Under the pieces are notes generated by a model. That model was given only the letters and a program-made list of their open reading frames with translations, did not search any database and was not told the origin of the DNA. A DNA stretch of 7,751 bases, taken from IMG/VR virus record IMGVR_UViG_2698536571_000012, one strand, 5' to 3'. Positions 1 through 7,751 of this stretch are shown in pieces. Source of the DNA: a virus (lineage: Duplodnaviria > Heunggongvirae > Uroviricota > Caudoviricetes). Position numbers and translations under genes: made by a program. Each line of letters begins with the position of its first letter. Within the stretch, counting starts at the first letter, position 1.

Positions 1-22
1 GGGACGGAAGTCGCTGTCGTTC

Positions 23-268
23 TCAAAATCGGTGGAGCTGCATGACAAAGTCATCGGGCATTATCTGAACATAAAACACTATCAATAAGTTGGAGTCATT
101 ACCCAGCTTCCAAGCCTTATTACATTTAATCTGAGCATCGAGAATATCATTTCTGATAGCTGGAGCGTAACCGGATACATCGCTAATATTCATTAACTCT
201 TTGCACGATAGCATAGGCGCGTTATTGCGTTCAGTGGTCACGTTACCTGCATTCTTCTTACTGGTCAC
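23..268 (-). CDS. Hypothetical protein, 3' segment of a frame-disrupted gene downstream of the tape measure gene
   Basis: Track ORF with GTG start at 268 and TGA stop at 23-25. Hand translation shows the same frame stays open with no stop up to 571 (182 codons) but has no ATG/GTG/TTG before 268. An open frame this long in AT-rich DNA is unlikely by chance, so the coding region probably extends upstream (see finding on 23-701). Confidence 0.5.
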
Positions 269-548
269 ACCACCGTCATTTGTGGTAGCCGTTTTGCCAG
301 TGGCTGCTGAAATATCAGTTTGACCTACGATTGCTTTAAAGTTAATTTCCTGAAAAGTTAGCTGGATACGAAGACCGTTAGAGATAGTAACATCTTTAGA
401 GGCTTTAAAGTTGGTAATAATGGAATCGTCAATTTTAATTCCATCTTTACAGATAACAGAAATAATCTGCTTCTGGTCACGCCAGTTTTCCAGAGTGTCA
501 ATGAAGTTTTCTACTAATTGACCCTGACGAGTTAATAATAAGCTTCCT

Positions 549-740
<192 letters not shown>

Positions 741-857
741 TCATTTTTAACCAAGCCTTTGATATATATGTATTTTCTCTGTTAAGCGTGAGCTACGTGA
801 AAAATAATTTTTGGTGTGGGTATTAACTTTGCTTTATTCACGTAGAACACCGTTAAA

Positions 858-3038
858 TCATTCTTCCTCTGGATAGCTTGAACTTAAGAGCATATCCTGC
901 GTGAACTGGTCATTAGCTGATTGATTGAAAGTAAAGAAAGATGGTTCATCTGGTCGAACGACAACTTGACCACCAAGTGAAACTTTCACTGGCTCCTGAA
1001 TACGCTTACTCAAAGCACTAATTTCATCCCTCAGACCCTGAATATCTGCACTCGTTAATGCTGAATCTTGCTTAATGTTGTTTAACTCTGGATGATTGAA
1101 TCTTGCAATATTCATTGTGGCATTGTTAAACAATTCACCCATTGAACTAAAAATTCTACTCCATCCTTCGTTAATCATATTCGGTTTATTAGGGTCACCA
1201 GAATACACGGGATTAAAGTCACTACCCACACCTACCCCAGACGGATGCATATTAGCGTTTTTGACTACTTCCTGATTCATAAAATCCAGTGCTTTCTTCA
1301 ATGCATATAAACCAAGAGTGACGCCTCTGATTTGTGGAATCATTGAAGCTAATGCTAACGCTGTTTCATAACCGTCATCAGCATAACCAATTGCAAGAGC
1401 ACTACCTACACCACCAGCTACACCTTTCAGTTTTCCACCACCTTTACCAGTAGCTACCTGACCAGCCACCTGATTAGCTCTTGTACCTAACGTTGTGATT
1501 GCTCTTGTCAGGTTCATAACCCCTGTAGTAGCACTGAATAGCGTCTTTGCAGATAACGCTATAGCAAGACCTTTGACGAAGTTGATAAAACCATCACCGA
1601 CTTCATCAAGTAGTTTTCGTTTAGTGTCATCAAGGCTGTAATAGAACTTCTTAGTCTGTAAAATCCAGCCTTCAATGGTGTTATTGAATACGCGAATATC
1701 ATCTACACCAGCTTTAAGCATGTCGATAAGTCCACCGATAGCATCACCAGCGATAGAAGAACTCATCCCCATTTCACTAAGCAGGTTACTCAGGCTGGAT
1801 AAGAAGCCGTTTAGCTCATCCTGTGAACCTGAGAAGATTTTCACCATCGTATCATCCCAATTGTTTGCTAACTTACCTAAAGCTGTCTGAGTGCTCTTAG
1901 TGACTTCAGCCCAGCCACCCGCTTTATCAATCATCAAGCCCATCTGTTTAGCGACTTTAGGGAGAGTATCAGCGGAAAGTACCTTCCCGTTTTTCATGGC
2001 TGCATCAAGCTCTGTAGCAGTCATACCCAATGCTTCAGCGAATAGCTTAAATGCACCAGCCATACGGTCACCTAACTGCCCACGTAATTCCTCAGCCTGA
2101 ATCTTGCCCTTGCTCGCCATCTGCTCAAATGCTCTCAAAATGCCGTTTAGCTCATCGTTAGAAAGCCCCATTAAGCGACTCATAGCCGTTGCATTACCAA
2201 ATAGCTCCTGTGTCTGTTCCTGTGACATAGAACCCTGAGCACCTGCTGCAAACTTAGCGTAGCTTGATAGCCCTTCAGAGATATTAAGACCTGTCTTGTC
2301 TGCTAAATTTCGAATAAATACCTCAGCTTCAGATGCTTTATCACCAAGTACAAACTTAGCGGCTCTCTGTGCGGAATCTCGTTTAAGACCTGCATTCATA
2401 ATGGCCTTGTAAGCGTTAAGAGCACCCATCACAGAGTAAAATGCACCAGATAATTTAATCGCATTGCTTGCAAGATTATTAAATGCGTCGCTTGTATTGT
2501 TAATGCTGGCGGTCTTTGTCTGTGACCTGAGTTTATTCAACGTTTCACGAAGAGATTGATTTAATTTTGCAAGTTCAGCGTTAAACTTTTCACTTCCAAT
2601 ATTACCAGCCTTACCGCTTAAGCTGTAATACTGTGCTTTAAACATTTTAGCCATCAGCGGATTAATATCACCAAGCTTAGACATATTCACGCTATGCGCT
2701 GCTGTGATTGCTCTGTTTCCGCTAATTCGTGGTTGCCTTGATTGTTTTGGAGGATTAACAGTGTCATTAAATCTGGTGGCAAACTGAAATGCTTTTGTGC
2801 TTCTTGCTCTCTGCTCAATCTTGTCAAAGGTCTTATTAAACTTCCTTTCAAGCTGCCCTAAAGAACTTGTCAGATTGCTGTCAAGTTGCTTGGTATCGAC
2901 CTTAAACGCTCTATTCAAATTGCGTTCAATTCTTTGTGCTGACTGCAAAGCTGCCTTTTCAACTCTTTGCAAGCCCTTAATAACGTTTTCACTGAAACTA
3001 AGTTCAACGATAAAACTATCAACTGTGAATTTGCTCAT
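858..3038 (-). CDS. Phage tail tape measure protein (726 aa)
   Basis: Long, largely helical protein with the conserved tape-measure motif region (...GKIQAEELRGQLGDRMAGAFKLFAEALGMTATELDAAMKNGKVLSADTLPKVAKQMG...) and a Gly-rich hydrophobic segment (GKGGGKLKGVAGGVGSALAIGYADDGY). Start ATG 3038-3036 with GAGGTG Shine-Dalgarno 8 nt upstream. By the lambda gpH rule of thumb (~0.15 nm per residue) this would set a tail of roughly 100-110 nm. Confidence 0.85.
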   Translation of the reverse strand: MSKFTVDSFIVELSFSENVIKGLQRVEKAALQSAQRIERNLNRAFKVDTKQLDSNLTSSLGQLERKFNKTFDKIEQRARSTKAFQFATRFNDTVNPPKQSRQPRISGNRAITAAHSVNMSKLGDINPLMAKMFKAQYYSLSGKAGNIGSEKFNAELAKLNQSLRETLNKLRSQTKTASINNTSDAFNNLASNAIKLSGAFYSVMGALNAYKAIMNAGLKRDSAQRAAKFVLGDKASEAEVFIRNLADKTGLNISEGLSSYAKFAAGAQGSMSQEQTQELFGNATAMSRLMGLSNDELNGILRAFEQMASKGKIQAEELRGQLGDRMAGAFKLFAEALGMTATELDAAMKNGKVLSADTLPKVAKQMGLMIDKAGGWAEVTKSTQTALGKLANNWDDTMVKIFSGSQDELNGFLSSLSNLLSEMGMSSSIAGDAIGGLIDMLKAGVDDIRVFNNTIEGWILQTKKFYYSLDDTKRKLLDEVGDGFINFVKGLAIALSAKTLFSATTGVMNLTRAITTLGTRANQVAGQVATGKGGGKLKGVAGGVGSALAIGYADDGYETALALASMIPQIRGVTLGLYALKKALDFMNQEVVKNANMHPSGVGVGSDFNPVYSGDPNKPNMINEGWSRIFSSMGELFNNATMNIARFNHPELNNIKQDSALTSADIQGLRDEISALSKRIQEPVKVSLGGQVVVRPDEPSFFTFNQSANDQFTQDMLLSSSYPEEE

Positions 3039-3070
3039 TCATGTTTCACCTCTTTAAGTGTTCATATACG

Positions 3071-3111
3071 AAAAAGGGAAAGACTACCGATATCACTCGA
3101 TAATCTCTCCC
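3071..3111 (-). terminator. Rho-independent terminator-like hairpin immediately upstream of the tape measure gene
   Basis: On the minus-strand RNA: GGGAGAGA-U-UAUCGA-[GUGAUA]-UCGGUA-G-UCUUUCCC, about 14 bp of interrupted stem with G-U wobbles, followed directly by UUUUU (plus 3071-3075). Only ~18 nt separate the U-tract from the tape measure RBS. Confidence 0.5.
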
Positions 3112-3136
3112 GTAGATTTTCACCCAACCAATCTTG

Positions 3137-3343
3137 TTACCTAACCAGATAATAATTACCATCTTCACCAACAATCTGACAATCACTTGGTAATTTATCA
3201 AGACACCACTTAGCTATTTTCCTGATTCTATTCTTTTGCTTAGAGGAGGTGAATGATTTGATTCGTTTTGGTTTGTTGGGTTGTTCTTTCAATCGTTCAC
3301 TAATTGCTTTAATAAGCTCATAGCGTTCTGTTAAATCAATCAT
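3137..3343 (-). CDS. Hypothetical small basic protein (68 aa)
   Basis: Track ORF; ATG at 3343 preceded by AAGGTGGTGGTG; TAA stop 3139-3137. Lys/Arg-rich (KEQPNKPKRIKSFTSSKQKNRIRKIAK). Sits where a tail assembly chaperone would be expected, but is not acidic and shows no overlapping -1 frame partner. Confidence 0.65.
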   Translation of the reverse strand: MIDLTERYELIKAISERLKEQPNKPKRIKSFTSSKQKNRIRKIAKWCLDKLPSDCQIVGEDGNYYLVR

Positions 3344-3367
3344 TCACCACCACCTTTTAATTATTAA

Positions 3368-4078
3368 TTAAATAGCCTTTGCATATTTGCTAGAAATCTT
3401 CGTAAGCTGCTCAATATCAGCCTGCATAGCAATCTTCTTAGCATCTTCATATTCTTTCACAAGCTCTTTCATAGCCTGAAGCTCTCTTGAGAGATACAAC
3501 TTAACATTATCAAGTTGCTTGTTACGTGATGCCAAGATGTTCTGTCTAGCAATTTCAGCGAGTTCTTCATCGCTCTTATTAGTCATGTAAATAAACTGAC
3601 CAGCACCTCTTGATGCCTTAACCATCTTCACAATTCGATGTCCAGCAGGAAGACTACTAATCACGGCTGCGACGTTTTCTTGAAAAGTACCAAAACCATC
3701 ATTATCTTCGTATTGGTAATAGACAAATGGTTTCTGTGACAATTCATCCTGAATCTCAAATTCTGACGGCTCAATAGCTGATTGCATCAAGGTAACTTTG
3801 CTGTAAGCGTCATCTAATCTAAGGCGCTGTTCTTTCAGCAGTTGGTAATATTTCTTTTCAAGCTCAAGTAATGCTTCACTCTTGCAAATATCAGGCATCT
3901 CTTGAGGCTCAGGAGACACAAAGATGGTTGTTTTTGGTGACATCTTTAGCGATTGCTCAAGCTCAATACGCTTGTCATGCTCTTTACGCTGAATAGTGAT
4001 AGCTGGATGTTCAGTCTGTGGCGACCAGTCACTGAAGCTATCAATCACTTTGCCATTAATGTAAATATCATTTGTCAT
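3368..4078 (-). CDS. Hypothetical protein (236 aa) with predicted coiled-coil C-terminus
   Basis: Start reassigned to ATG 4078-4076 (MTNDIYINGK...) because GAGGA sits 6 nt upstream; the track's GTG start at 4126 has no RBS. TAA stop 3370-3368. Heptad-like C-terminal region (DEELAEIARQNILASRNKQLDNVKLYLSRELQAMKELVKEYEDAKKIAMQ). Function not recognisable by eye. Confidence 0.7.
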   Translation of the reverse strand: MTNDIYINGKVIDSFSDWSPQTEHPAITIQRKEHDKRIELEQSLKMSPKTTIFVSPEPQEMPDICKSEALLELEKKYYQLLKEQRLRLDDAYSKVTLMQSAIEPSEFEIQDELSQKPFVYYQYEDNDGFGTFQENVAAVISSLPAGHRIVKMVKASRGAGQFIYMTNKSDEELAEIARQNILASRNKQLDNVKLYLSRELQAMKELVKEYEDAKKIAMQADIEQLTKISSKYAKAI

Positions 4079-4253
4079 TGCTTTTCCTCTTCTAAGCGGA
4101 AGTGTTTCAGTTTTTAAAAAGCACACCTGACAGCCTATCTAAACTTAGAAGAGACTTAAAAGGCGGTTTGCCAAGTATGCTTTTTAAAAGCTGAATAGCC
4201 CTAGATAATTTCTTATAAAGGGCCATTCATAAGGTGAAGAAATTAAAACATCT

Positions 4254-4275
4254 AAAGGATTCAAAAAGGATTCAA
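4254..4275. repeat. Perfect tandem duplication, 2 x 11 bp (AAAGGATTCAA)
   Basis: Exact copies at 4254-4264 and 4265-4275 inside the ORF-free island. Confidence 0.9.
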
Positions 4276-4398
4276 ACGAATGAACAAGAGTACTTTTCGA
4301 GATGACCTCTCAGACTAACCTGAAAGGTCATGTAGCGAAAAGCATTGCACCTTTCAGAATAACTATCATTGATGTAGAATGATTAATAGTTTAATTCA

Positions 4399-4415
4399 GG
4401 AAGAGTTGCTCTTCC
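4399..4415. repeat. Perfect 17-bp palindrome GGAAGAG-TTG-CTCTTCC
   Basis: Arms 4399-4405 and 4409-4415 are exact reverse complements. No U-tract follows on either strand, so more likely a protein-binding dyad than a terminator. Confidence 0.85.
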
Positions 4416-4553
4416 CTATTACCATCATCTCATGCTTAAGGTTATTTGTCAACAGCTTTTTAACAGATTGGTAACATCAATTCTTATTTACCGTATTACC
4501 TACCCAGCAACCAACAAATAACCCTAAAGTCATCCAGAGAATAACGAGTGTCA

Positions 4554-4859
4554 TTACATCACCTCGCTGTAAGGGTTTAATTCATTCTGATAGGTCAAGA
4601 ATACATTCAGCTTCAATAATTGCTCAGGGCTTAAATCAAGTCGATTGCACTCTTCAATGATAAAGCGCTTATTGTATGGGTCTGTTACTTCCAGCTTGTG
4701 AACATAGTCACCAAGTTTAATTTCGTTGATTATATGCTTGTCAATATACGTTGACGCTTCAAAACAATGCATGAAATAGATATTAAAGCCCGACCTGTTC
4801 AGGTCAATCAACCAATTCATGGTTTCTTGGTCAACCATAATTTGCATTGGGTAATTCAT
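4554..4859 (-). CDS. Hypothetical protein (101 aa)
   Basis: Track ORF; ATG at 4859 with AGGAAGGA about 8 nt upstream; TAA stop 4556-4554. No recognisable motif. Confidence 0.7.
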   Translation of the reverse strand: MNYPMQIMVDQETMNWLIDLNRSGFNIYFMHCFEASTYIDKHIINEIKLGDYVHKLEVTDPYNKRFIIEECNRLDLSPEQLLKLNVFLTYQNELNPYSEVM

Positions 4860-5005
4860 TTTTAAAATCCTTCCTGTATCGCATTCTAAGACGTTTTAAC
4901 CCCTTTTTTAGACCACTTAAGGCGATTCCCTAAGTTACCCTGATTAGGGGCTTAAAAACGTTTCTGGTGCGTCTGGTAAAGCCTGAGAGATATGTTTTGC
5001 TGTTT

Positions 5006-5233
5006 TTAGCTCAAGTCTGAGACTAATAGCCCCATCTGGTGACCGTAGTCTTTTAACCAGCTTTGCTTAACCGGAGTCTTCAGAGAATAGTTAGGGGCTG
5101 ACAAGTGAAGATAGATATCATCTTTGCCGTGGATACTTCCCCATCCTTCGTATAACTCAAGCAAGTTTTCAAAATAACGAAATGCTTTATTAGTCTGAAG
5201 TTGTACTGTGATAGTTTTCATCAAGCACCCCAT
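5006..5233 (-). CDS. Hypothetical protein (75 aa; 71 aa if started at ATG 5221)
   Basis: Track ORF. The alternative ATG at 5221-5219 overlaps the upstream gene's TGA stop (TGATG, 1-nt overlap), consistent with translational coupling. Confidence 0.65.
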   Translation of the reverse strand: MGCLMKTITVQLQTNKAFRYFENLLELYEGWGSIHGKDDIYLHLSAPNYSLKTPVKQSWLKDYGHQMGLLVSDLS

Positions 5234-5442
5234 TCAGAAATAAGCTTAATTCCCTGCTCAAGCTGTTCAGGGTCGTTATAGTCGAGTATTACCAGTGGCT
5301 TTAATTCGTGTTTAAGCTGGTGGATTTGAGAGGGTTTTAATCGTTTGTTTGCTTTGAGGGTCACATCTTCAAATTCAGCATCTGCTAAATTCTGTCTGAT
5401 TAGGTGGCGGCCAAGTGTGGAATATTGGAACCTATAACACAT
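5221..5442 (-). CDS. Hypothetical protein (73 aa), middle gene of the coupled three-gene operon
   Basis: ATG 5442-5440 overlaps the TAA stop of the upstream gene (TAATG); GGAGG 4 nt upstream. TGA stop 5223-5221. Confidence 0.7.
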   Translation of the reverse strand: MCYRFQYSTLGRHLIRQNLADAEFEDVTLKANKRLKPSQIHQLKHELKPLVILDYNDPEQLEQGIKLISEWGA

Positions 5443-5732
5443 TAAACCTCCAATCTATCCGCCAGTTGATGGACCTTAGCGCTTAACACCTGAATCATTG
5501 AGCAACCTGCTACTGCGGACTGTGCTTTGAGTAGTTCCAGTTGGCCCGTTGTGATTCTGATGGCCTTAGAACCCTCTGCGACGCCCTTAACGTTATCGAA
5601 AGGGCTAAGGTTTACCGACTCTTTTAAAATCTCCCCAACAAGCGCTGTGTGCTTCATATCGGGATATTTGGCTTTGATTGCTGCCAGTCGTTCAAATGCC
5701 TCTGGCAAAAGGCGCGTAACTGTGTGAGTCAT
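5442..5732 (-). CDS. Putative ribbon-helix-helix (CopG/Arc-like) DNA-binding protein (96 aa)
   Basis: Start reassigned to ATG 5732-5730, which has AAGGAG 9 nt upstream; the track start at 5762 has no RBS. N-terminus fits an RHH pattern: beta-strand HTVTRL, helix LPEAFERLAAIKAKY, helix HTALVGEILKESV. The fold call is by eye only. Confidence 0.65.
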   Translation of the reverse strand: MTHTVTRLLPEAFERLAAIKAKYPDMKHTALVGEILKESVNLSPFDNVKGVAEGSKAIRITTGQLELLKAQSAVAGCSMIQVLSAKVHQLADRLEV

Positions 5733-5790
5733 TGTAAAAATCTCCTTAAATCTCTTACTCATACTACAATCTTAACATCTATTTAACATA

Positions 5791-5819
5791 TTGTCAGTAC
5801 CTCATTTACATGATACTAT
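5791..5819 (+). promoter_or_regulatory. Sigma70-like promoter for the small plus-strand gene
   Basis: TTGTCA (5791-5796), 17-bp spacer, TACTAT (5814-5819) with TG at 5811-5812 (extended -10). Lies ~50 nt upstream of the 5870 start codon. Confidence 0.4.
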
Positions 5820-5869
5820 GGTTGTAGGGGCTGATACAGGTGCTGTTTCCTTTCACAAAAGGAAAATTA

Positions 5870-6046
5870 ATGCATGATTTTTTCACAGCAATTATTGAAT
5901 CTCATCGTTTTAGCTCGTTGGGCTTTGCGGTATTTATTGTGCTATTGGTGTTTTGCGTTATGAATCGAGTCATTACAAAAAAGACAAAGCTTACAATTCG
6001 ACTTAAACTTCTTCGTGTTGAGATAGAGATTTCAGTAAATAAATAG
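5870..6046 (+). CDS. Small single-pass membrane protein (58 aa), candidate toxin or exclusion-type moron
   Basis: ATG 5870 with AGGA 6 nt upstream; the track's GTG start at 5840 has no RBS. Sequence MHDFFTAIIESHRFSSLGFAVFIVLLVFCVMNRVITKKTKLTIRLKLLRVEIEISVNK: one hydrophobic helix followed by a cationic tail. TAG stop 6044-6046. Confidence 0.6.
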   Translation: MHDFFTAIIESHRFSSLGFAVFIVLLVFCVMNRVITKKTKLTIRLKLLRVEIEISVNK

Positions 6047-6055
6047 CTGGTGGCC

Positions 6056-6352
6056 TTACCGGCACTTTCCCTTGATAATATTGGTGGCCCTCAGATTACC
6101 GGGGTCACCGTCTTTTAATCGTAGCTGGTGGACTGAATCCCATAAATCGTAATGATACAGCACCGCAAACTTCAAAGCGTCAATCTTTAAATCTGTCACA
6201 TCATCGACGAAATAATAATCCCTCCCTTCTTTCTTCGGTCGAATCCGGTAAACTTCCCCGTGAGTATCTTTCATCAAGTAACCTTCACGAGAAATGCTGT
6301 AACGTCTGAGTAAATAGTCACGGTATTTTCTCTCGCCATTATAAGTTTTCAT
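6056..6352 (-). CDS. Hypothetical basic protein (98 aa), translationally coupled to the replication initiator
   Basis: ATG 6352-6350 overlaps the initiator's TAA stop (TAATG); GGAGGA 8 nt upstream; TAA stop 6058-6056. Tyr/Arg/Lys-rich. Confidence 0.7.
   Translation of the reverse strand: MKTYNGERKYRDYLLRRYSISREGYLMKDTHGEVYRIRPKKEGRDYYFVDDVTDLKIDALKFAVLYHYDLWDSVHQLRLKDGDPGNLRATNIIKGKCR
6083..6116 (+). terminator. Rho-independent terminator-like hairpin for the small plus-strand gene
   Basis: Plus RNA stem GGUGGCCC (6083-6090) pairs with GGGUCACC (6102-6109), 8 bp with one G-U, 11-nt loop, then G-UCUUUU (6110-6116). It lies inside the 3' end of the convergent 98-aa gene. Confidence 0.45.
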
Positions 6353-7305
6353 TAAAACATTCCTCCACCATAAACACGTCTGACTTTAACTTTTTCTTTC
6401 TTTGGCTCGGTGTGAGTTTTCTTTTTTGGTGTAAAAGTAAAATCATCGTCACTATCATCAAAGTCATCGAGGTCACTAACCTTGTTCTTTAGCTTCGCAT
6501 TTCTGAATCTTTCTTTAATTTCTGCTTTACGCTGTTCACGTTTCAATTCCTCTTCAGGGTCTTCTTCATCATCAAGGTCAACATCCGGTAATTCATCATC
6601 AGTGGCGGGGCACTGTGTGTTTTTATGGTCACTACTAGCAATCACATCAGAGATTTTATCTTCCTTTTTAACGACCTCTTTAGCAGCTTCACTATCAAGG
6701 TCATCTAAGTCAGATGTTTTAACAGTCTCTTTAATAGCCTCTTCAATACCAAGAGAATCACATTCATGTGAATCACAGAGCGAAGCTCCCTTCTTAAAAT
6801 ATTCTTCTTCAAAGTCATCTTCTTTATTGTTATTAATAAGTTCTTTCTTGTTATTACTGTTATTATACGTGTCAAAGATTTTGACTGACTGAGTAAAAAA
6901 TTTTGACTCAGTGGGTAAAGAATTTTGACTCAGTGGGTCATCTTTCTTGACTGACTGAGTAACTTTAGACTCCAGCTTTGCCTTTCTGGCTTCCTTAGCT
7001 GTAAGCTCTGTTAAAACCTCCGGTACTTCATCAAGTGAATAAACTTTAATAACACACTGATTGCTTGCAACGTTAGTTTTCTTGATTAAACCATGTGCCT
7101 CAAGTTGTTTCATACATGCAATCACGGATGTTCTTGTGATTCCAGCATACTGACCAAGATGAGCATATGAAGGGGTATAATATTGCCCCTTATCGTGATA
7201 AAACTTTTGTTCATTCAACATGACAGTGTAAATAATACGGTCGGCAGCTTTAACGCCATTAGTCATCTGATAAATACGGTCATCAAACATGTGGAATTTT
7301 TCCAT
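6352..7305 (-). CDS. Phage replication initiator (lambda-O-like organiser) with internal origin, 317 aa
   Basis: Start reassigned to ATG 7305-7303 (MEKFHMFDD...) with AAGGAAAA RBS; the track's GTG start at 7362 adds an implausible 19-aa leader. N-terminal winged-helix-like segment (YAHLGQYAGITRTSVIACMKQLEAHGLIKK), a central linker encoded by the iterons, and a strongly acidic C-terminal tail (SDLDDLD, DVDLDDEEDPEEE, SDLDDFDDSDDDF). Confidence 0.75.
   Translation of the reverse strand: MEKFHMFDDRIYQMTNGVKAADRIIYTVMLNEQKFYHDKGQYYTPSYAHLGQYAGITRTSVIACMKQLEAHGLIKKTNVASNQCVIKVYSLDEVPEVLTELTAKEARKAKLESKVTQSVKKDDPLSQNSLPTESKFFTQSVKIFDTYNNSNNKKELINNNKEDDFEEEYFKKGASLCDSHECDSLGIEEAIKETVKTSDLDDLDSEAAKEVVKKEDKISDVIASSDHKNTQCPATDDELPDVDLDDEEDPEEELKREQRKAEIKERFRNAKLKNKVSDLDDFDDSDDDFTFTPKKKTHTEPKKEKVKVRRVYGGGMF
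6790..6870. other. AT-rich tract adjacent to the iterons (candidate DNA-unwinding element of the origin)
   Basis: About 80 bp of mostly A/T (ttcttaaaatattcttcttcaaagtcatcttctttattgttattaataagttctttcttgttattactgttattatacg) directly next to the iteron array, inside the initiator ORF. Confidence 0.55.
6879..6962. repeat. Iteron array: four 18-bp direct repeats at exact 22-bp phasing
   Basis: TTTTGACTGACTGAGTAA (6879-6896), TTTTGACTCAGTGGGTAA (6901-6918), TTTTGACTCAGTGGGTCA (6923-6940), TCTTGACTGACTGAGTAA (6945-6962), plus a degenerate copy TTTAGACTCCAG (6965-6976). Confidence 0.8.
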
Positions 7306-7458
7306 TATATTTTCCTTTTTAAAAATAAAACAAAGAAAGGGCTGACCACGTATAGTGACCAACCCCAGAGGGAGTGAATTAATTAGAAGATGGACTGATA
7401 AAGGAACTCAGAAGCCTGAGCGATTACGCGAGTATTAACAGCAAAAGGAAAAGCCTTG

Positions 7459-7488
7459 ATTGAATAAGAGGCCGTGAAAATCTGTCAA
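7459..7488 (-). promoter_or_regulatory. Candidate sigma70 promoter for the replication operon
   Basis: On the minus strand, consensus TTGACA (plus 7488-7483), 18-bp spacer, TTCAAT (plus 7464-7459). The -10 is weak (no A at position 2), so this is tentative. Confidence 0.3.
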
Positions 7489-7610
7489 TACCCTGACGCC
7501 TCCCAACGTTGTAACCTCTTAATGTTCTGAGTTCTTTTATCACCCCATATAAAAACCATAACAGATGTGATTATAAATTGCAACAATTATTTCACAGAAT
7601 AATTACTGAT

Positions 7611-7673
7611 TGGTCATTTATTGTTCACAGGGATACTTCTTAATATCTGAATCACCTATCTTGTAAATGACCA
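7611..7673. repeat. 10-bp perfect inverted repeat TGGTCATTTA / TAAATGACCA (candidate operator)
   Basis: Arms at 7611-7620 and 7664-7673, 43 bp apart, in the untranslated region upstream of the replication operon. Confidence 0.6.
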
Positions 7674-7751
7674 TATTTATGAGAATTTTAGCTCAACCTT
7701 TGAGCAATCCTGTATGACGTGCTCAGAGGCATTCTGAGAGCATCTGCAATG

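What the first reader, a model, noticed from the sequence alone, without database searches (positions are those of the whole stretch)
3039..3136. Strong intrinsic terminator between the 68-aa gene and the tape measure gene
In the 98-bp gap, the minus-strand RNA can form a ~14-bp interrupted stem (GGGAGAGA/UCUUUCCC outer, UAUCGA/UCGGUA inner) followed by UUUUU. The tape measure RBS begins about 18 nt after the U-tract, leaving no room for a promoter. Tape measure expression would therefore depend on terminator read-through, a known way to set low stoichiometry of downstream tail components relative to abundant upstream proteins. It also implies that the 236-aa and 68-aa proteins are made in excess, which bears on what they are.
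Basis: seen in the sequence. Interest (0 to 1): 0.45.

Follow-up and report, generated by a model that had tools for sequence, protein, structure and literature searches.

The report
Conserved terminator gating an island's tape-measure gene
The hairpin is a real, conserved transcription stop signal, but it sits in a small chromosomal island of E. coli/Shigella that carries phage-derived tail genes, not in a phage tail operon; it closes the island's own operon and leaves the tape measure gene behind it dependent on read-through.

Summary
Observation confirmed. On the minus strand, 3111-3076 forms a 15-bp stem (3 G-U pairs, 6-nt loop) followed by UUUUU (3075-3071). It folds at -24.7 kcal/mol (z = -4) and is the best terminator-like site in the window. 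It occurs in all 41 related loci that include this gap. There are 12 stem variants, all of which fold. They include compensatory changes and G-C/G-U swaps that only work on the gene strand.

The window is a decayed ~11-kb chromosomal island, probably from Shigella sonnei, and relatives occur in 452 of 5426 complete E. coli genomes. The island has a serine recombinase, a replication-initiator-like gene and Dam. It also has a tape measure gene and a tube-initiator gene related to Felixounavirus phages.

The terminator ends an operon (236-aa and 68-aa orphan proteins) driven by a conserved near-consensus sigma-70 promoter. The U-tract lies 4-33 nt from the tape measure ribosome-binding site in about 60% of islands, which leaves no room for a promoter. 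Read-through dependence is therefore well supported. The idea of abundant upstream structural proteins is not. This is an ordinary kind of element in an interesting, apparently undescribed setting.

The parts
3076..3111 (-). Terminator stem-loop: 5' arm 3111-3097, loop 3096-3091, 3' arm 3090-3076 (15 bp, 3 G-U pairs)
   Evidence: conserved with compensatory changes
3071..3075 (-). U-tract (TTTTT, then CGTAT); 5-7 T in all relatives
3047..3052 (-). Ribosome-binding site GAGGTG of the tape measure gene, 18 nt after the U-tract
   Evidence: GAGGTGAAA is conserved in all islands
858..3038 (-). Tape measure gene (726 aa), downstream of the terminator. Overall 29-33% aa identity to phage garuso TMP, but the 5' 135 nt (80%) and 3' 44 nt (86%) are phage-like
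3137..3343 (-). 68-aa orphan gene, last gene of the terminated operon (stop codon 25 nt before the hairpin)
3368..4078 (-). 236-aa orphan gene (ATG 4078), first gene of the terminated operon. RefSeq labels it 'transposase' but no domain supports this
4424..4452 (-). Sigma-70 promoter TTGACA-17-GATGAT with TGn (CATAAT in most relatives), about 345 nt upstream of the 236-aa gene. The -35 is invariant in 30 loci
777..848 (-). M2 module between the tape measure stop and the tube-initiator gene. In about 40% of islands a second copy lies between the terminator and the tape measure ribosome-binding site; that copy is absent here
104..701 (-). Tube-initiator ('baseplate protein') gene, 85-95% aa identical to garuso gp119. 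Here it is a pseudogene (frameshift and ~25-codon gap near 554, cut by IS1)
   Evidence: function assigned by synteny with Bas63 gp18 (PMC12609058)

Best explanation
This is a Rho-independent (intrinsic) terminator. It ends the island's own sigma-70-driven operon: promoter at 4452-4424, a ~345-nt leader, the 236-aa gene and the 68-aa gene. It insulates the phage-derived tail cassette that follows (tape measure, then tube initiator). In this copy the U-tract is 18 nt from the tape measure ribosome-binding site, so there is no promoter of its own. The tape measure protein can therefore be made only from the fraction of transcripts that read through the hairpin. It is kept low relative to the upstream operon unless something suppresses termination.

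Shown: the hairpin, U-tract, strand, conservation, covariation and promoter, and the lack of space for a promoter. Inferred: that termination happens in vivo, how efficient it is, and that read-through is the functional route of expression.
For: Anatomy and stability.

Conservation: the hairpin is present in 41 of 41 loci with this gap, as 19 distinct sequences and 12 stem variants. It persists even where the neighbouring 68-aa protein is only 45% identical.

RNA-level and strand-specific: every variant folds at -16 to -24 kcal/mol on the gene strand, against -7.6 to -16.5 on the other strand, with 2-4 G-U pairs each.

Covariation: two inner-stem pairs change on both sides (U-G to G-U or A-U; G-C to C-G or U-G). 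Outer-stem changes are G-C/G-U swaps, and none of the 10 consensus pairs is broken. Chimeric arms taken from different inner-stem classes lose about 6 kcal/mol (-15.4 against -21.5).

Upstream promoter: conserved TTGACA-17-CATAAT/GATGAT with TGn.

Spacing: the distance from U-tract to ribosome-binding site is 4, 15-18 or 33 nt in about 60% of loci. No sigma-70-like site lies in the gap.

Precedent: a related phage has the same terminator-then-gene layout between the tube and chaperone/tape-measure genes.
Against: There are no transcript data, so termination efficiency is unknown. The U-tract here is only 5 U followed by CG. In about 40% of relatives a 62-nt module (M2) of unknown function lies between the terminator and the ribosome-binding site. 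It could be a promoter, in which case read-through would not be the family's general route. This island copy is decayed (tube-initiator pseudogene, recombinase broken by IS elements), so expression of its tape measure gene may no longer matter. A small hairpin (CACUU/AGGUG) may partly mask the ribosome-binding site on read-through RNA.
Confidence: 0.7

Rival explanations
1. Regulated gate. The terminator is efficient in uninfected cells and is overridden (antitermination, or terminator-resistant polymerase) when a Felixounavirus-type helper infects or when an island factor is made. The tape measure and tube-initiator proteins would then appear only during infection.
For: The cassette is phage-derived and sits in a satellite-like island. 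A near-consensus constitutive-looking promoter feeds directly into the terminator. A second terminator-like hairpin lies 33 nt before the replication-initiator-like gene. The upstream 68-aa protein is small and very basic in its middle.
Against: No alternative antiterminator fold was seen. There is no Rfam match. No nut/put-like element was identified upstream. No antiterminator homologue was found. The second hairpin is conserved in only one other locus.
Confidence: 0.2
2. Pure operon end. The hairpin only terminates and stabilises the upstream mRNA. The tape measure gene is transcribed by other means (a non-sigma-70 or helper-dependent promoter such as M2 in relatives) or, in this copy, not at all. 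Read-through would have no function.
For: M2 precedes the tube-initiator gene in all islands and the tape measure gene in about 40%. This copy is decayed.
Against: About 60% of islands, including intact ones such as L002 and L003, have only 4-33 nt between the U-tract and the ribosome-binding site, with an intact tape measure gene. M2 has no sigma-70-like hexamers and is absent from phage garuso.
Confidence: 0.2
3. The hairpin is the 3' end of a 3'UTR-derived small RNA, or an RNA processing or stability element, rather than primarily a transcriptional barrier.
For: The segment between the stop codon and the hairpin (ATTGGTTGGGT...) is conserved in most islands. The U-tract and hairpin would suit Hfq binding (general knowledge).
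Against: The conserved upstream segment is missing in one variant class (L027-L031, L039), which keeps the hairpin. The motif is not enriched in the window. There is no Rfam family. This reading is compatible with, not an alternative to, termination.
Confidence: 0.07
4. A DNA-level element (protein-binding palindrome, recombination site or cruciform) at the junction between island-specific and phage-derived DNA.
For: Mosaic breakpoints in BLAST hits fall at about 3061/3062 and 3132, on both sides of the hairpin.
Against: The arms contain 2-4 G-U pairs that are C-A mismatches on the other strand and in DNA. Stability is strongly asymmetric between strands. The T-tract is always on the 3' side of the gene strand.
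Confidence: 0.03

Closest known systems
Canonical Rho-independent terminators of E. coli and its phages
   Same: A stem that is G-C-rich at its base, a short loop and an immediately following U-tract, placed just after a stop codon on the transcribed strand. The score is positive on the d'Aubenton-Carafa scheme.
   Different: The stem is rather long (15 bp) and A-U/G-U-rich in its inner half. The U-tract has only 5 U in this copy. No in vivo data exist.
Terminator between the tail tube and tape-measure-chaperone genes of Felixounavirus phage garuso
   Same: A strong hairpin plus U-tract about 20 nt before the next gene's ribosome-binding site, with no room for a promoter, placed just upstream of the tape measure module. 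The outer-stem and tail sequences look alike (GGGGGAGAC...GTCTTCCCCTTTTTTG against GGGAGAGA...GTCTTTCCCTTTTTCG).
   Different: In the phage it follows the abundant tube protein gene and precedes the chaperone genes. In the island it follows two orphan genes, and the chaperone genes are absent. Homology of the two hairpins is not established: BLAST of the island segment finds nothing in phages.
T7 T-phi terminator after major capsid gene 10 (from my own knowledge, not checked here)
   Same: An incomplete terminator inside a co-directional gene series lowers expression of downstream virion genes relative to an upstream gene.
   Different: T7 uses its own RNA polymerase, and the upstream gene encodes a major structural protein. 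Here the polymerase is presumably the host's, and the upstream proteins are orphans.
Putative E. coli satellites carrying capsid, decoration, tape measure and baseplate-hub genes (Barth, Nguyen and Seed 2023, PMC10448857)
   Same: Small integrated elements of E. coli that carry a tape measure gene and one baseplate-related gene but lack most tail genes. They also have modular replication initiators, and some have serine recombinases.
   Different: [quoted passage not shown] The island here has no capsid genes, and its tail genes are related to Felixounavirus. Twelve host accessions of this island, and its terminator sequence, are absent from their supplementary tables. Regulation by terminators is not discussed there.

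Membership tests
Intrinsic (Rho-independent) terminator | Stable stem-loop, G-C-rich at its base, on the transcribed strand | tested here: met
   15 bp with 6 G-C pairs and GGG/CCC at the base; -24.7 kcal/mol, z = -3.96
Intrinsic (Rho-independent) terminator | U-rich tract immediately 3' of the stem | tested here: met
   TTTTT at 3075-3071, directly after the stem; 5-7 T in all 41 relatives
Intrinsic (Rho-independent) terminator | Position just downstream of a co-directional gene | tested here: met
   The stop codon of the 68-aa gene is at 3137-3139, and the hairpin starts 25 nt later
Intrinsic (Rho-independent) terminator | Base pairing maintained in evolution (RNA-level selection) | tested here: met
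   12 stem variants all fold. Two pairs show double-sided changes, G-C/G-U swaps occur, and chimeric arms are destabilised
Intrinsic (Rho-independent) terminator | RNA 3' ends or termination measured in vivo or in vitro | not testable with these tools
   No transcriptome data are available here
   It is a chromosomal island with a serine recombinase, a replication-initiator-like gene and Dam, inserted at different chromosomal sites
   The 236-aa and 68-aa proteins have no hits in Pfam, PHROGs, NCBIfam or PADLOC. The family is a narrow orphan one. The low-confidence helical model has no fold match
   18 nt from U-tract to ribosome-binding site here, and 4-33 nt in about 60% of relatives. No sigma-70-like site is present
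Attenuator or riboswitch-type regulated terminator | A conserved alternative (antiterminator) structure or a known leader family | tested here: inconclusive
   No Rfam match at E <= 1. The 141-nt fold shows only the terminator. The upstream sequence is coding, and no systematic search for alternative folds was made
Processive antitermination (lambda N/nut, Q/qut, HK022 put type) | A nut/put-like RNA or DNA site upstream of the terminator, plus an antiterminator protein | not tested
   No homologue appeared in the family scans. No dedicated search for nut/put-like sites in the 345-nt leader was made
Phage satellite (for the island that holds the terminator) | An integrase, its own replication gene, some helper-related virion genes, and no complete set of structural genes | tested here: met
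   Serine recombinase; PHROG replication-initiator hits; TMP and tube initiator related to Felixounavirus; no capsid, terminase or other tail genes
Phage satellite (for the island that holds the terminator) | Induction, replication and packaging that depend on a helper phage | not testable with these tools
   The six IMG/VR loci found were not examined further and give no evidence that the island is packaged

The most novel reading that the evidence does not exclude
The terminator is a helper-responsive gate in an undescribed family of Felixounavirus-associated islands. The island's constitutive promoter idles into the terminator. Only on infection does termination fail, through a phage- or island-encoded antiterminator (possibly the basic 68-aa protein). 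That would release an island-made tape measure and tube initiator with phage-compatible ends, which either take over or poison tail assembly.
Probability: 0.12. Interest if true: 0.65.

Novelty: new member of a known kind. Interest (0 to 1): 0.3.

Why it matters
The terminator itself is textbook biology. Its value lies in what it says about the island's regulatory layout. A widespread island (452 of 5426 complete E. coli genomes, and very common in Shigella sonnei) carries its own tape measure and tube-initiator genes, with ends that match Felixounavirus phages. I found no description of this island. It keeps that cassette behind a strong terminator fed by a near-consensus promoter. This gives a concrete, testable handle for asking when and how the island deploys phage-like tail proteins: delete or weaken the hairpin, then measure read-through with and without phage. 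It also corrects the annotation context, since this is not a phage tail operon.

Tried and rejected
- **Rfam scan of the window at E <= 1:** nothing at the hairpin or M2.
- **BLAST of the hairpin segment and of the M2-containing gap against 50,697 phage records:** no match.
- **nhmmer with an M2 profile against the full garuso genome:** nothing better than E = 0.9. M2 is therefore not a Felixounavirus promoter type that I can recognise.
- **Sigma-70 scan of an island with M2 upstream of the tape measure gene:** no site in M2 on the gene strand.
- **Motif ATTGGTTGGGT after the 68-aa stop codon:** not enriched in the window (5 matches with up to 2 mismatches, and 9 of 200 shuffles did as well).
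- **Function of the 236-aa protein:**
  - No family hits.
  - Only 23 clusters at 50% identity.
  - The AlphaFold model was of low confidence (pLDDT 66, mostly long helices).
  - The Foldseek search of viral structures gave no hit with E <= 0.001.
  - The RefSeq label 'transposase' has no domain support.
- **MAFFT alignment of hairpin variants:** it put the 3' arms of bulged variants out of register, so RNAalifold recovered only 10 of 15 pairs. I therefore folded each variant separately and ran arm-swap controls.
- **Second terminator-like hairpin before the replication-initiator-like gene:** conserved only in L002, because the replication module is swapped in the other islands.
- **Literature:** five searches and one supplementary-table check found no description of this island or terminator.
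- **NZ_CP057957:** this representative of the Barth et al. serine-recombinase subset is not in the local collection.

Full report
**1. The observation**

Read on the minus strand, the 98-bp gap between the 68-aa gene (stop codon 3137-3139) and the 726-aa gene (ATG 3038) contains these elements:
- GGGAGAGATTATCGA (3111-3097)
- GTGATA (3096-3091)
- TCGGTAGTCTTTCCC (3090-3076)
- TTTTT (3075-3071)
- 18 nt of spacer, then GAGGTG (3052-3047)

With G-U pairs allowed, the stem is a continuous 15 bp. The pattern scan ranks it first among all terminator-like sites of the window. RNAfold gives -24.7 kcal/mol, against -13.5 +/- 2.8 for shuffles (z = -3.96, 0 of 200 as good). The hairpin also dominates the fold of a 141-nt context. 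A d'Aubenton-Carafa-type score that I computed is +16, far above the other minus-strand candidates.

**2. The context is an island, not a phage tail operon**

The 726-aa protein is a tape measure protein (Pfam TMP_3 at 2e-21; PHROG tape measure families down to 4e-93). The genes upstream on the same strand are not tail genes. They are two orphans (236 aa and 68 aa), several small ORFs, and a helix-turn-helix protein that matches phage replication-initiator PHROGs.

Megablast places the window in E. coli chromosomes as an island of about 11 kb. Its gene order is:
- large serine recombinase
- 'baseplate protein'
- tape measure
- 68-aa gene
- 236-aa gene
- small genes
- replication-initiator-like gene
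- Dam methylase

The island is inserted at different places: within yecE, between tonB and yciI, and next to wrbA. The gap region matches 452 of 5426 complete E. coli genomes, always on chromosomes.

The exact 236-aa protein heads a cluster named Shigella sonnei. It lies in 4.8-Mb chromosomes next to wrbA, with the recombinase broken by IS1, IS21 and IS3. In the window itself:
- Positions 1 to about 113 are IS1.
- The gene after the tape measure gene is a pseudogene.

That pseudogene is 85-95% identical in protein to gp119 of Felixounavirus phage garuso. By synteny with Bas63 (sheath gp13, tube gp14, TMP gp17, tube initiator gp18; PMC12609058), it is the tube initiator.

The island tape measure is only 29-33% identical to the phage one overall. 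Its first 135 nt (80%) and last 44 nt (86%) are phage-like. Phage-like sequence stops about 10-20 nt upstream of the tape measure ATG. The terminator therefore lies in island-specific DNA, right at the junction.

**3. Comparative evidence for the hairpin**

I collected the same gap from 29 metagenome contigs, 2 reference genomes of other Escherichia species and 10 E. coli chromosomes.
- All 41 loci that contain the gap keep the hairpin plus 5-7 T. They comprise 19 distinct sequences and 12 stem variants.
- This includes loci where the adjacent 68-aa protein is only 45-62% identical.
- Every variant folds at -16 to -24 kcal/mol on the gene strand, but only at -7.6 to -16.5 on the opposite strand. 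Each contains 2-4 G-U pairs. The structure is thus selected at the RNA level, on the strand of the genes.
- The purine-only outer 5' arm is invariant. Its partner varies only between C and U opposite G.
- Two inner pairs change on both sides (U-G to G-U or A-U; G-C to C-G or U-G). No consensus pair is broken.
- There are three different inner-stem solutions. Joining the 5' arm of one class to the 3' arm of another costs about 6 kcal/mol on average (-15.4 against -21.5 for cognate arms).

Rfam has no family here, and the segment has no match in phage records.

**4. The transcription unit**

About 345 nt upstream of the 236-aa gene lies TTGACA-17-GATGAT preceded by TGn (4452-4424). In 30 related loci the -35 is invariant, and the -10 is CATAAT in most. 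This is the best-conserved non-coding element of the region.

The simplest reading is one operon: promoter, leader, 236-aa gene, 68-aa gene, terminator. The distance from the U-tract to the tape measure ribosome-binding site GAGGTGAAA is modular across the family. It is 4 nt, 15-18 nt (18 nt in this window), 33 nt, 74-75 nt or 99-101 nt. In the roughly 60% of islands with 4-33 nt, no promoter can fit and none is detected. Tape measure mRNA must then come from read-through.

**5. What qualifies that inference**

- The upstream proteins are not recognisable virion components. They have no family hits, and the family is narrow. The structural model is of low confidence and mostly helical, with no fold match.
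- In about 40% of islands the longer gaps hold a 62-nt module, M2. Its sequence is CTACGTGAA, about 35 nt including ATACCCAC and an A/T-rich block, then TT(C/T)ACGTAGCTCACGCTTAA.
- The same module lies between the tape measure and tube-initiator genes in every island, including this window at 848-777.
- M2's 9-bp stem tolerates C/U exchange as G-C/G-U on the gene strand.
- M2 has no sigma-70-like hexamers and is absent from phage garuso. Its role is open. If it is a promoter, the family design is 'terminator as insulator plus separate control', and this window's copy simply lacks that control for the tape measure gene.
- A further small hairpin module, M1 (GATAG-N4-CTATC), occurs on either side of the terminator in some islands.

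**6. A phage precedent**

In garuso, the only strong terminator-like site of the 12.8-kb structural region is a 13-bp hairpin plus U-tract. It lies in the 73-nt gap between the tail tube gene and the tape measure chaperone genes, about 20 nt before the next ribosome-binding site. The outer stems and tails of the two hairpins look alike. I could not establish homology.

**7. Mechanism and rivals**

- **Best explanation (0.7):** an intrinsic terminator closes the island operon and leaves the tape measure gene dependent on leak-through.
- **Regulated gate (0.2):** the terminator is overridden on infection. The satellite-like context and a second terminator-like hairpin before the replication-initiator-like gene are suggestive. 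No antiterminator structure or factor was found, and that second hairpin is conserved in only one other locus.
- **Pure operon end with no functional read-through (0.2).**
- **sRNA or stability element (0.07).**
- **DNA-level site (0.03).** The G-U pairs and the strand asymmetry argue against this.

**8. Novelty**

The element is an ordinary member of a well-known class, so interest in it alone is low. The setting appears undescribed. The nearest published case is the set of E. coli putative satellites with capsid, decoration, tape measure and baseplate-hub genes (PMC10448857). Twelve host accessions of the present island, and its terminator sequence, are absent from that paper's supplementary tables. 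Further literature searches found nothing. Absence from the searched library is not proof that the island is undescribed.

Noticed in passing
window 1-7751; loci L002, L003, L036, L037, L046-L049: The window is part of an ~11-kb chromosomal island. The island carries a serine recombinase, a Felixounavirus-like tube initiator and tape measure, orphan genes, a replication-initiator-like gene and Dam. It occurs in 452 of 5426 complete E. coli genomes and is inserted at several sites (yecE, tonB/yciI, wrbA). It looks like a phage satellite or tail-interference element, and I found no description of it.
   Followed up: partly
window 848-777 (-); second copies e.g. L006 3307-3370: M2 is a conserved 62-nt module with a 9-bp stem (CUACGUGAA/UU(C/U)ACGUAG) around a ~35-nt core (ATACCCAC...AAAAAT...). 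It always lies upstream of the tube-initiator gene. In about 40% of islands a second copy lies between the terminator and the tape measure ribosome-binding site. It is not sigma-70-like and is not present in phage garuso.
   Followed up: partly
window 4452-4424 (-): A near-consensus sigma-70 promoter (TTGACA-17-GATGAT with TGn; CATAAT in most relatives) has an invariant -35 in 30 loci. It is followed by a conserved ~345-nt leader before the 236-aa gene. The leader's role is unknown.
   Followed up: partly
window 104-701 (-) and 1-~113: The tube-initiator gene is a pseudogene here (frameshift and ~25-codon gap near 554) and is cut by an IS1 fragment. In the source genomes the recombinase is broken by IS1, IS21 and IS3, so this copy is immobilised and decaying while the tape measure gene stays intact.
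   Followed up: yes
window 858-3038 (-): The tape measure gene is mosaic. Only its first 135 nt (80%) and last 44 nt (86%) resemble the phage gene, while the protein overall is 29-33% identical. The conserved ends are the parts expected to contact the phage assembly partners (the C-terminal 25 residues contact the hub in Bas63).
   Followed up: partly
window 7366-7338 (-): A second terminator-like hairpin (12 pairs, then TTCTTTGTTTTATTTTT) lies 33 nt upstream of the replication-initiator-like gene's ATG (7305) and downstream of a TTGACA promoter-like site near 7487. It is a possible attenuator. It is conserved only in L002, because other islands carry different replication modules.
   Followed up: partly
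L001 8450-8421 (-) (phage garuso): A strong intrinsic-terminator-like hairpin (13 bp, -19.9 kcal/mol in context) lies between the tail tube gene and the tape measure chaperone genes of a Felixounavirus, with no room for a promoter after it.
   Followed up: partly
window 3132-3122 (-): The motif ATTGGTTGGGT lies directly after the 68-aa stop codon and is conserved in most islands. In two hairpin variants a similar AATTGGTT(A/G)G forms the 3' arm of the inner stem. It is not enriched in the window.
   Followed up: partly
loci L003, L009, L015, L005-L008 etc., around the terminator: M1 is a small hairpin module (GAGATAGGTTCTATC / GAGATAGTCTTCTATC). It is inserted either upstream or downstream of the terminator in different islands, so the gap is a mosaic of short structured cassettes.
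   Followed up: no
window 3368-4078 (-): The 236-aa protein is labelled 'transposase' in RefSeq and GenBank but matches no Pfam, NCBIfam, PHROG or PADLOC family. It is predicted to be mostly long helices. The label looks unfounded.
   Followed up: yes
window 3042-3019 (-) and 3060-3047 (-): A 7-codon out-of-frame mini-ORF (ATGAATGAG...TGA) overlaps the tape measure start. It is a relic of the phage chaperone gene's end (garuso ...AAAATGTAATGG). A 5-bp hairpin CACUU/AGGUG may partly mask the ribosome-binding site on read-through RNA.
   Followed up: no
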